Shown one piece after another: positions 96 to 27,386 of a stretch of 64,000 nucleotides of DNA. Position 1 is the first letter of the stretch; each line of letters starts with the position of its first letter. A program made the position numbers and the translations under genes. The DNA comes from Octopus vulgaris (Eukaryota): positions 38,130,001-38,194,000 of the forward strand of contig OX597839.1 of NCBI GenBank assembly GCA_951406725.2, written 5' to 3'. The notes beneath the pieces were generated by a model that made no database searches, was not told the origin of the DNA, and worked only from the letters and a program-made list of their open reading frames with translations.

Positions 96-1325
96 ATGTC
101 TTACATACCTAATACACTTTTAGTGAAAGTTAAAAAATCCCACGACCTAGGTCTCGGATTCGCGGTTAACGAAAGGCCTTCAAAACCCCATGTGATGATT
201 AGCGAGGTCTTTCTTAATGGACCGGCCAAAGAAACTGGACAGATCTACGTCGGTGACTCAATTCTGCGAATCAATGATATTGACGTTAGTGACATGAATT
301 TCGACCAAGTGGCCGACATTCTGAAGAACGTAGTCGTGGACGAAACCGTGACGTTATTTTTGAAAGGTCCTGAAGGCAGCATGACGCATTTAGAGACCAT
401 ATTTCTGGATAATGGAACCCCTCGTACCATGCGAGTGACAAAACCGATCCCTAATGAATCGTTTGTCAACAGATTAAAGCGGACGTTCGGTCCATCTGTT
501 CCGTCGGCAGTGAACCCTATTCGACGGTTTTATCACATGGACTCTGGAAAGACTAAGAAAAACAATGCGTCCCCTAAAAAGGAACCGTTTTTTCCCAACG
601 ATAAAACATCGTCTCTGACGTCGTCGACGTCGTCCTCGTCAACGACCCCGAAAAGAAAGACACATTCGTTTTCGGACGGCTCAGACATCATTCGAAACGG
701 TTCGCTCCCTGTAGATTGTCCGGATCGTTCGGACGTGAACTGCCAGACGCGCAAGAATATTGTCAACACTGCGCCAAACCCCGCTAACGCCGTCAAAGAG
801 ACTGTCTTGGAAGATAGTAGAAACGGGTCTCCAAAGATCACTTTGACCGCTGTGCAGAGTGTTCCTGGAGATCCGAATTCCACTAACTTACAGAACCAGA
901 TGTCTGGAGATCGCGGTATCGGAGGCGGTGGTGGCGGTGGCGATGGTGGCGGTGGTGTTAGAGGTGTCCGTAGCGACGGTTATGGGGATTATGATGTGAT
1001 AGTGATCAAACAGGAACAAAACCAGATCAAAGTGATAATGGCGAATGAAGACGGCGGCAGCGTGTCGGAAACGATAAGAGACGACAAGAGCAACACGAAC
1101 GCGGTGATTGGGGACGAAAAGAAAACTGCCGCCGTGAACGACGTCGTCAACGGAACGCCAACTAAAAGCAGGTCTCGCAGCGGCAGCAGACACAACCTGT
1201 ACTGCGAGAACACTGGTCGAGGGTCACCAGAACGCAGAGGGTCGAGCCCCGTGAAATACTGCAAACTGAAATGCTACCAAACTGAGAAAGTGACCACGGA
1301 TATGTTGCACTTGAAAAGTGTTGAG
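96..1325 (+). CDS. NOS: Nitric oxide synthase (nNOS-like), coding exon 1: PDZ domain, beta-finger, long low-complexity linker
   Basis: ATG at 96 in AAAATG context with in-frame TGA at 72-74; GLGF PDZ loop (DLGLGFAV); THLETIFLDNGTPRTMRVTKP resembles the nNOS beta-finger; ends TDMLHLKSVE then GAG|gtaag donor, phase 0. The ORF track reads through into the intron to 1391. Confidence 0.93.
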
Positions 1326-25669: not shown

Positions 25670-25761
25670 GTATTTGACTGCCGTCATATTACCTCCACCC
25701 GTGAAATGTTTGAAGCGATTTGCAATCATATCAAATATGGTACTAACAAAGGGAACATCAG
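25670..25761 (+). CDS. NOS: NOS coding exon 4
   Basis: ttgcag|GTA...AG|gtaaga, 92 nt; [31 protein letters not shown]. Confidence 0.97.
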
Positions 25762-25810
25762 GTAAGATTCCATGCATGTGTTGAGTGAAGAGAGAGGGGG
25801 GATTAGGAGG

Positions 25811-26170
25811 AAGGGTAGCGGACTCGCGGTCATAGGATCGCGGTTTCGATTCCCAGACCGGGCATTGTGAGTGTTTATTGAGCGAAAACACCTAAAAGCT
25901 CCACGAGGCTCCGGCAGGGATGGTGGTGATCCCTGCTGTACTCTTTCACCACAACTTTCTCTCACTCTTACTTCCTGTTTCTGTTGTACCTGTATTTCAA
26001 AGGGCCGGCCTTGTCACTCTCTGTGTCACGCTGAATATCCCCGAGAACTACGTTAAGGGTACACGTGTCTGTGGAGTGCTCAGCCACTTACACGTTAATT
26101 TCACGAGCAGGCTGTTCCGTTGATTCGGATCAACCGGAACCCTCGTCGTCGTAACCGACGGAGTGCTTCC
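25811..26170 (+). mobile_element. SINE family B copy 50 nt downstream of exon 4
   Basis: B-box-like ggtttcgattccc; body shared with 1787-2130 and 50439-50742. Confidence 0.82.
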
Positions 26171-26614
26171 AGGAGGAGGAGGGAAAAGGAAATAGAAGTG
26201 ATTTCGATTCCTGGACTGGGCGATGCGTTGTGTTTCTACAGCAAACCCCTTCATTTCACGTAGTTGCAGTCCACTCAGCTGGTGAAAATGAGTGACCCTG
26301 CGACGGACCGGTGTCCCGTCCATGAAGGAGTATACACGTCAGGGAAACCGGAGAAACCGATGCTATGCTCCTTATGGAGTAAATGGTCTCGTCAAAAAAT
26401 GGTTTTTTAATAATCTGTTTTATTTCAAGGTTGTGAAAAATTTCTTTTCGGAAATTAATATTCGTTTCATCATTTTTGTACAGCGATGTACTCGCATAGC
26501 AAGTGACTTGATCTGAGATCGTGTGCTGGAACGAAAACAATTGCAGCGTGGAAGGTGTTTGTAAGCCATTTAAGAAACACACAAAAGCCGTTCGATTCAG
26601 ATGCAGCACGGATT

Positions 26615-26665
26615 TTTGTCAGTGAACAGGTCGCGGTCTTAAAGCGACGAAAATATTTTGACAAA
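26615..26665 (+). ncRNA. Type-I hammerhead motif with G3-C8 covariant core
   Basis: uuuguca GUGAACA G GUCGC-ggucuuaaa-GCGAC GAAA AUAU UU ugacaaa (7-bp stem I, 5-bp stem II). Confidence 0.7.
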
Positions 26666-27386
26666 TTAAACTTAAATGTTGAAGTGAATCGAACGACTTT
26701 TGTGTGTTCTTAAATGGCTTACAAACACCTTCCACGCTGCAATTGTTGTCATTTTTGTACAAGCAGTTAGAAATTTCATAACAGTTAAATTATAATTTCT
26801 ACTAAATGTACGCCATATTTGCTGACATTACGCGGGCGAGCAAAACTACAAGGGGGTAATACTTTAATAACTAATAACAATGTATGGGCATAGACGTGAA
26901 CAATTAACACATTTAATATAATAATTAACTTAGGTTAATTACTCAGGCATAGCAGGCATATCTAAAACCAGGAGTTGGGTTAGTTTTAGCAGATTTAACA
27001 CGATGTTAAGTACAATAGTTAAGCTAGTGTTAAGTTATTAAACGTAGGGAACATCTAAACATCTAAGATAACATTTATTTTATGACTAATATTGTTTTAA
27101 TCATAGAGTAATGGTTAAAATAATATTAGTCGTAAAAACTAATGTTTTGAGGTATTTGTATTTTGTTTTTGTGTTTTTTTTTGTTTGTTTTTTTCTTTTC
27201 GGTGAGCGTTTTTGTGTGTGTGTTTTTTTTTTGTGTGTGTGTGTGTGTTTTGATTTTTTTACAGCAAAAGTATTTCTAATTAAATGTTTCATGCTCAATG
27301 CATTAATAATGTTTAAATGTTGACTGGAGAGAAAATTAGATGGGGGAGCAGGGTAATTGGATTGTTAGGTAGACAGACAGACAGAC

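What the first reader, a model, noticed from the sequence alone, without database searches (positions are those of the whole stretch)
26470..26761. Complete small insertion: 13-bp TSD, 64-bp inverted arms and a G3-C8 covariant hammerhead
Seen: direct repeat tcatttttgtaca at 26470-26482 and 26749-26761 brackets a 266-bp element with arms 26536-26599 / 26685-26747. Between them, on the NOS sense strand, is a motif with 7-bp stem I, 5-bp stem II and core GUGAACA; AAAAUAUUUU is self-complementary. Known: C3 and G8 form a tertiary Watson-Crick pair, and the swapped G3-C8 pair can rescue activity. Inference: the compensatory swap is strong evidence for a selected ribozyme, and TSD plus inverted partial repeat fits Penelope-type integration.
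Basis: partly seen in the sequence, partly recalled or inferred. Interest (0 to 1): 0.8.

Follow-up and report, generated by a model that had tools for sequence, protein, structure and literature searches.

The report
Penelope-element hammerhead with swapped core pair
This small insert in a nitric-oxide-synthase intron is one of thousands of short copies of a Penelope-like jumping gene, all carrying a hammerhead RNA motif whose usual C-G core pair is flipped to G-C; it likely cuts itself only weakly and in pairs, and cutting is untested.

Summary
Observation confirmed: 13-bp duplication, 64/63-bp inverted arms, hammerhead fold with G3/C8. The insert is a head-to-head solo copy of the end repeat (pLTR) of an autonomous RT + GIY-YIG Penelope-like element (Nematis-like), found here with frames up to 1025 aa; arm and tail encode its first ~30 codons. 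The G3-C8 core occurs in 6,616 exact copies. Related families keep the same scaffold with C3-G8 or U3.G8, so the swap is real covariation, but one event. I found no natural G3-C8 core in the papers held; three key papers were unavailable. 'Strong evidence for a selected ribozyme' is overstated: only 1 of 105 copies starts at the cut site, a mismatched G3.G8 subfamily and a C9 sister family also spread, and cleavage is untested. Side results on Penelope integration: copies start at a sharp point, often with an extra G (cap-like), and 4 of 30 young two-armed inserts have arms from two different subfamilies. Verdict: new variant of a known kind; this copy is probably a passenger.

The parts
26470..26482 (.). 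Left target-site duplication (10-13 nt; up to 3 inner bases also fit the tail end)
26483..26535 (-). Penelope 'tail': 53-nt extension on one arm only; about codons 12-29 of the element ORF
26536..26599 (-). Inverted, 5'-truncated pLTR piece (left arm); ORF ATG at 26569 on the minus strand; 3-nt microhomology (26597-26599) with the forward piece
26599..26614 (+). Start of the forward pLTR piece, at the family's common 5' start (putative transcription start or 3' splice junction)
26615..26665 (+). Minimal type I hammerhead motif: G3 26622, C8 26627, extra G 26629, 5-bp stem II, palindromic stem III 26652-26657, predicted cut after U17 26658
26685..26747 (+). Right arm: tail-less pLTR 3' end; ORF ATG at 26714, first 11 codons
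26749..26761 (.). Right target-site duplication
25670..25761 (+). Host NOS exon upstream of the intron
28853..28994 (+). Host NOS exon downstream of the intron

Best explanation
The insert is a head-to-head solo copy of the end repeat (pLTR) of an autonomous Penelope-like retrotransposon, and it carries that family's minimal hammerhead motif with a swapped G3-C8 pair, which likely cleaves only slowly, as a dimer or with the element's protein. Shown: parent ORF, family-wide G3-C8, C3-G8 and U3.G8 in related families, two fixed 3' ends, one tail per two-armed insert. Inferred: the element's GIY-YIG nuclease cut AT-rich DNA with a 10-13-nt stagger; its RT primed at two internal sites (about +125 and +185 from G3) on uncut RNA that begins about 22 nt before the core; the two cDNAs joined head to head by microhomology. 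This copy is likely a neutral passenger in the NOS intron.
For: Parent: RT + GIY-YIG frames lie about 1 kb upstream of the same motif (L182, L183, L198). In tandem copy L198 the arm and tail run on into the ORF. 6,616 exact core matches, control 0. G3 in 69 of 72 and C8 in 63 of 72 pieces found by flanking motifs. 3' ends cluster at +121..129 (46 of 105) and +180..187 (56 of 105), like the two RT start sites of PAc (PMC11167929). 57 of 65 two-armed inserts have exactly one tail, none has two. Family Y (55% aa over 815), found through its protein, has the motif at the same place with C3-G8. Over 12 hand-picked rows: pair 3-8 is CG 4, GC 4, UG 4; pair 15.2-16.2 is GC 6, AU 4, unpaired 2. Common subfamily changes hit 0 of 42 motif positions against 9 of 70 loop or spacer positions (p 0.013; 0.044 if counted as 7 events). 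Extra nucleotide, palindromic stem III and dimer-only activity are typical of PLE minimal hammerheads (PMC4209133). C3G/G8C partly rescues cleavage in PAc (PMC11167929).
Against: No cleavage data. Only 1 of 105 pieces starts at the cut site; 67 start upstream of G3. 400 G3 copies lack C8, and 39 of the first 100 listed have G8 (hand count). Both pLTRs of ORF-bearing L195 and L200 are G3.G8, and they group with G3-C8 copies rather than at the base (support 91/95), so a broken pair moved. Family Y has C at position 9 in 92 of 100 listed copies (hand count). The predicted fold pairs G3 with U17, extending stem I. The intermolecular 6-bp stem III is worth only -0.2 kcal/mol. Rows were partly found by patterns that fix several motif letters, so their invariance is partly built in.
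Confidence: 0.6

Rival explanations
1. Same origin, but the motif is catalytically dead or nearly so. It is kept as a structural element (RNA pairing or protein binding), and the G3-C8 state is a tolerated drift product.
For: Templates were uncut. G3.G8 and C9 variants spread. PAc hammerhead mutants insert normally in vitro and no RNA-seq ends were seen at its cut site (PMC11167929). Naiads thrive without canonical hammerheads (PMC8557442 passages).
Against: Catalytic letters U4, G5, A6, G12-A14 and U16.1 stay free of common changes while loop II changes. The 3-8 pair stays complementary in the main states of all families examined, which pure drift would not favour.
Confidence: 0.3
2. An independent non-autonomous retrozyme or SINE that replicates through ribozyme-cut monomers or circles.
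For: Thousands of short, ORF-less copies with a sharp 5' start. A 2026 preprint derives retrozymes from pLTRs (10.64898/2026.07.22.740005, part 1 read).
Against: No short tandem arrays among the loci read. Copies do not begin at the cut site. The same loop subtypes occur on ORF-bearing copies.
Confidence: 0.05
3. This copy was co-opted to regulate NOS pre-mRNA, by cleavage or as a 64-bp hairpin for A-to-I editing.
For: Sense orientation in a NOS intron; very stable hairpin; present at this site in three other coded organisms.
Against: It is an unmodified type-B family copy with ordinary decay in the arms. It is the only family insertion in the window, so no partner motif in cis. It appears absent in organism E (indirect).
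Confidence: 0.04
4. A MITE (DNA transposon) with terminal inverted repeats; the hammerhead look is chance.
For: Short, high-copy element with inverted arms and a target duplication.
Against: The arms are not terminal (one-sided tail), arm length and junction vary between copies, many copies have one arm only, duplications vary from 7 to 13 nt, and the sequence continues into an RT ORF.
Confidence: 0.01

Closest known systems
Minimal hammerheads (min-HHRs) of metazoan Penelope-like elements (Cervera and de la Pena 2014, PMC4209133)
   Same: Type I, in the pLTR, extra nucleotide between 9 and 10.1, G10.1-C11.1 pair, palindromic mini stem III, thousands of solo copies.
   Different: Their consensus is CUGANGAH, with U3-A8 as the reported 3-8 variant. 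Here the family state is G3-C8, and relatives show U3.G8, G3.G8 and C9.
Typical Penelope insertion structure (Adineta vaga Pen2a, PMC3846280; PAc, PMC11167929)
   Same: Inverted 5'-truncated pLTR, tail on one arm, pLTR holding the first ~12 codons, target duplication of about 10 bp, AT-rich targets.
   Different: Tail about 55-60 nt instead of 30-40. Most copies are pLTR-only. 4 of 30 young two-armed inserts mix two subfamilies, which the single-template self-priming idea in PMC3846280 does not predict.
Nematis clade of EN+ PLEs (PMC8557442)
   Same: C-terminal GIY-YIG, short CX2-5CxxC linker without the long Neptune insert, (TA)n targets.
   Different: DKS instead of DKG and an RWR motif recalling Hydra's RWK; no tree against reference clades was built.
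Engineered C3G/G8C double mutants (PMC11167929; G3-C8 remark in PMC3884650)
   Same: Same swapped pair; partial rescue reported.
   Different: Those are laboratory mutants; this one is natural and family-wide, with U17 instead of C17.

Membership tests
EN+ Penelope-like element | ORF with RT and C-terminal GIY-YIG linked to the repeat | tested here: met
   1025-aa frame in L182 with YVDD and Pfam GIY-YIG over cut-off. Pfam RVT_1 did not hit it; RT identity rests on the motifs and named homologues.
EN+ Penelope-like element | pLTR includes ORF start; tandem arrangement | tested here: met
   L198 pLTR runs through the tail into the ORF; ATG at 26714.
EN+ Penelope-like element | Inverted truncated pLTR, optional tail, target duplication | tested here: met
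EN+ Penelope-like element | Empty site in a relative | tested here: inconclusive
   in run X16 an 833-nt contig of depth 50.4 lies on 26753-27170 after 245 other letters, and depth 50.4 also stands at 26433; the joint row was among those not shown.
Nematis clade | Short CX2-5CxxC linker and CCHH in EN; RT tree position | tested here: inconclusive
   Linker resembles the Nematis rows and not the Neptune rows of the PMC8557442 supplement, by eye; no tree with references.
Hammerhead ribozyme | Three-way junction with U4 G5 A6, A9, G12 A13 A14, A15.1-U16.1, H17 | tested here: met
   one extra G after A9.
Hammerhead ribozyme | Watson-Crick pair 3-8 (canonical C3-G8) | tested here: met
   Pair is G-C, not C-G; covaries across families.
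Hammerhead ribozyme | Match to an Rfam hammerhead model | tested here: not met
   No hit at E<=10; minimal variants with a changed core may fall outside those models (inference).
Hammerhead ribozyme | Site-specific self-cleavage | not testable with these tools
   Needs an assay; genomic copies show uncut templates.
Non-LTR retrozyme | Short tandem units, each with a hammerhead | tested here: not met
   Copies are solo or head-to-head; the one 3.4-kb tandem fetched (L165, L166) repeats unrelated flanking DNA.

The most novel reading that the evidence does not exclude
A natural, catalytically active G3-C8 hammerhead fixed in a 7,000-copy Penelope family, whose palindromic stem pairs two uncut, capped element RNAs in one particle; each RNA primes on one side of the cut target, which would explain head-to-head inserts with one tail and arms from two different source elements.
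Probability: 0.2. Interest if true: 0.75.

Novelty: new variant of a known kind. Interest (0 to 1): 0.47.

Why it matters
The 3-8 pair is the structural signature of the active hammerhead fold. C-G and U-A are the natural forms reported in the papers I could read; G-C appeared there only as a laboratory rescue mutant. A genome holding G-C, C-G, U.G, U-A and G.G versions in related mobile families gives a ready natural series for asking what Penelope hammerheads are for, which is still open. CUGANGA-based searches would miss this whole family. The thousands of insertions also record the integration reaction: two priming sites, a sharp 5' start, and occasional arms from two different source elements bear directly on the unresolved Penelope integration mechanism.

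Tried and rejected
Rfam: no hammerhead hit; only microsatellite or hairpin miRNA noise. The GIY-YIG family search returned Neptune-like families that are not the parent: no link to this pLTR apart from separate inserts nearby. The 3.4-kb tandem on C2 is a local duplication, not a PLE tandem. A short upstream exon spliced onto the 5' start: no shared sequence beyond 2-5 nt upstream, so neither shown nor excluded. An older G3-C8 sister family 'W': 7 decayed hits with mixed 3/8 letters, uninformative. G3.G8 as the evolutionary intermediate: enriched in the older background (27 old, 5 young against 20 and 20; p 0.003) but not basal in the ORF tree; not supported. In G3.G8 inserts with both arms readable, 4 of 13 have G8 in both arms and 9 do not. 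MITE reading rejected. The bacterial promoter scan is irrelevant. The protein search gave 74 mostly unnamed hits and no clade label. Earlier-findings look-ups by sequence and place were empty. One paper opened by a guessed id was unrelated.

Full report
1. Observation. 4 of 200 shuffles of the 900-nt region contain any exact 13-mer repeat, and the hairpin has z -16.9. The hammerhead parse holds: stem I 7 bp, G3 26622, C8 26627, A9 26628, stem II 5 bp, G12 26649, a 2-bp stem III that is a 6-nt palindrome, U17 26658. The host is a NOS intron, 25762-28852, sense strand. The nearest named proteins to the element are from Octopus vulgaris, so the host is likely an octopus. Rfam has no hammerhead hit here.

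2. What it is. All 40 scored candidates of 2,400 are near full-length relatives, 89-100% identical. In 30 aligned copies both outer ends are fixed and the inner junction varies; 29 of 30 have G3 and C8; about 20 of 30, by eye, sit in (TA)n. An 18-nt core motif has 6,616 exact matches, control 0; an arm motif has 10,117. Copies that extend upstream pass a branch-point-like signal with a pyrimidine tract and AG, then microsatellite-rich DNA, then an ORF end with RT and GIY-YIG motifs. The longest frame fetched is 1025 aa (L182), with Pfam GIY-YIG over the cut-off and no RVT_1 hit. In tandem copy L198 the motif, arm and tail run straight into the ORF, whose ATG corresponds to 26714. So the insert is a forward, tail-less pLTR (26599-26748) joined head to head, through 3 nt of microhomology, to an inverted, truncated pLTR with its tail (26483-26599). 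This is the 'typical Penelope structure' described for Adineta (PMC3846280, passages). The EN linker looks like the Nematis rows, not the Neptune rows, of the PMC8557442 supplement (by eye, no tree).

3. Empty site. Contigs of organisms B, C and D run from the element's 3' end into the right flank (records 16, 24, 32), so the insert is there too. In organism E an 833-nt contig of depth 50.4 covers 26753-27170 after 245 other letters, and depth 50.4 also stands at 26433; this suggests an empty site, but the joint row was not displayed.

4. The 3-8 pair. In 72 pieces found by motifs outside the core, G3 is in 69 and C8 in 63 (G 5, A 2, T 2) (duplicated loci not removed). 284 copies lack G3 and 400 G3 copies lack C8. 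I saw no C3-G8 copy of this family in the loci read. Covariation appears between families. Family Y, found through its protein (55% identity over 815 aa), has the motif at the same place before its ATG with C3-G8; it has 3,757 matches, 92 of 100 listed with C instead of A at position 9 (hand count). A pattern for C3/U3 with G8 gave 86 hits; the 30 fetched plus 3 young Y rows and 2 others split into Y-like (C-G 10, U.G 2), a family V (U.G 14, C-G 2, 2 other), 4 unplaced and 1 of this family. On 12 rows that I chose, 3-8 is CG 4, GC 4, UG 4, and 15.2-16.2 is GC 6, AU 4, unpaired 2; 6 of 15 pairs change on both sides. Those rows are related and partly pattern-selected, so this shows homology and one real swap, not many independent ones. 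Unrelated Neptune-like families in the same genome carry U3-A8. Within the family, changes shared by 20% or more of copies fall on 0 of 42 motif positions and 9 of 70 loop, leader or spacer positions (p 0.013; 0.044 as 7 events): moderate evidence of constraint on source elements.

5. Against a required cut. Of 105 pieces, 1 starts at the cut site, 67 start upstream of G3 and 34 start at -28 to -19. 39 of the first 100 G3/non-C8 copies have G8 (hand count); both pLTRs of ORF-bearing L195 and L200 are G3.G8, and these group with G3-C8 copies, not at the base. So a mismatched core was mobile, as was the C9 core. This matches PAc, where hammerhead mutants insert normally, cleavage needs the protein, and C3G/G8C only partly rescues (PMC11167929, parts 1-2 of 4). 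Minimal PLE hammerheads did not cut as monomers and cut weakly as dimers (PMC4209133, parts 1-2 of 4). The predicted fold also lets G3 pair with U17; PMC3884650 (passages) discusses the like trap between positions 3 and 17.

6. Mechanism. 3' ends fall in two clusters, 46 and 56 of 105, about 60 nt apart; 57 of 65 two-armed inserts have exactly one tail, 8 none detected, none two. I infer two internal priming sites as in PAc. The base before the common start is G in 28 of 47 copies where the genome would give C (p 5e-7 against 0.25). In 9 of the 28 the G can come from the partner arm or the target. A copied cap is my preferred reading; a very short upstream exon is the alternative, since D. virilis Penelope has an intron there (PMC2377424, passages). 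On this reading the short copies are reverse transcripts of the 5' end of the element's own uncut mRNA. Arms of one insert differ at 62 of 578 subfamily-marking sites (10.7%), against 4.6% at other non-CpG sites and 45.7% for random pairs. Of 30 young inserts with loop II in both arms, 19 are A/A, 6 B/B, 4 A/B and 1 unclear; A and B differ by several substitutions and an indel. So most arms share a source, and a minority do not. Two RNAs per event would explain this and would not fit single-template self-priming (PMC3846280); later gene conversion is not excluded. Search one search listed no paper on this.

7. Novelty. Insertion anatomy and PLE hammerheads are known. Natural 3-8 variants in the texts I read are U3-A8 only (PMC3088659, passages and section 3 part 2; PMC4209133, with supplement file 2 searched and file 1 not searchable). 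Searches listed no natural G3-C8 core and no octopus PLE hammerhead. Lunse et al. 2017, Przybilski and Hammann 2007 and Hammann et al. 2012 are not held and may contain such cases. Other papers seen: PMC8557442 (passages, section 11, supplement rows), PMC7229834, PMC2837043, PMC6765202 (passages), 10.64898/2026.07.22.740005 (part 1 of 5; bioRxiv supplements closed). Two unchecked notes of this scan report G3-C8 plus an extra base behind PLE RTs in other genomes, so the variant may recur and be less rare than it looks.

8. Verdict. Real feature; Penelope-like origin about 0.95; homologous hammerhead about 0.9; measurable dimer or protein-aided cleavage about 0.6; function of this copy for NOS about 0.04. 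New variant of a known kind, interest 0.47.

Noticed in passing
L068, L070, L071, L074, L079, L085, L096: Neptune-like PLE subfamily with a U3-A8 hammerhead core and palindromic stem III.
   Followed up: no
L091-L094: Young Neptune-like family with a 781-aa RT-EN frame, an overlapping upstream frame of about 330-380 aa, and CCAAT/CRE-like tandem repeats after the ORF; my scan found no hammerhead there.
   Followed up: no
L184-L188 (family Y): Very young sister family, 1312-aa frames with an Asn-rich insert like those of Adineta Penelopes; hammerhead with C at position 9; 3,757 motif matches.
   Followed up: partly
L195, L200, L262-L299: G3.G8 mismatched-core subfamily that includes ORF-bearing copies.
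   Followed up: partly
L204-L231 (family V): Older related family with mostly U3.G8 wobble at the 3-8 pair.
   Followed up: partly
L043, L058, L298, L313 (and perhaps L303): Head-to-head inserts whose two arms come from different subfamilies.
   Followed up: partly
L135-L164, just upstream of the motif: Branch-point-like signal, pyrimidine tract and AG ending at the common 5' start of the short copies; preceded by (TACA)n-rich DNA.
   Followed up: partly
window 25790-26320: SINE-like repeats just upstream of the insert; very high contig depth at 26190-26320 in all four runs.
   Followed up: no
L042, L044, L111, L327, L328, L332, L333, L338: One insertion with the same flanks repeated at eight places on C1, carried inside a larger duplicated or mobile unit.
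   Followed up: no
L167, minus strand 46-762: 239-aa frame that looks like a Tc1/mariner transposase (recalled resemblance).
   Followed up: no
window 26536-26747: 64-bp near-perfect RNA hairpin in NOS pre-mRNA; thousands like it in the genome could be A-to-I editing or small-RNA substrates (inference).
   Followed up: no
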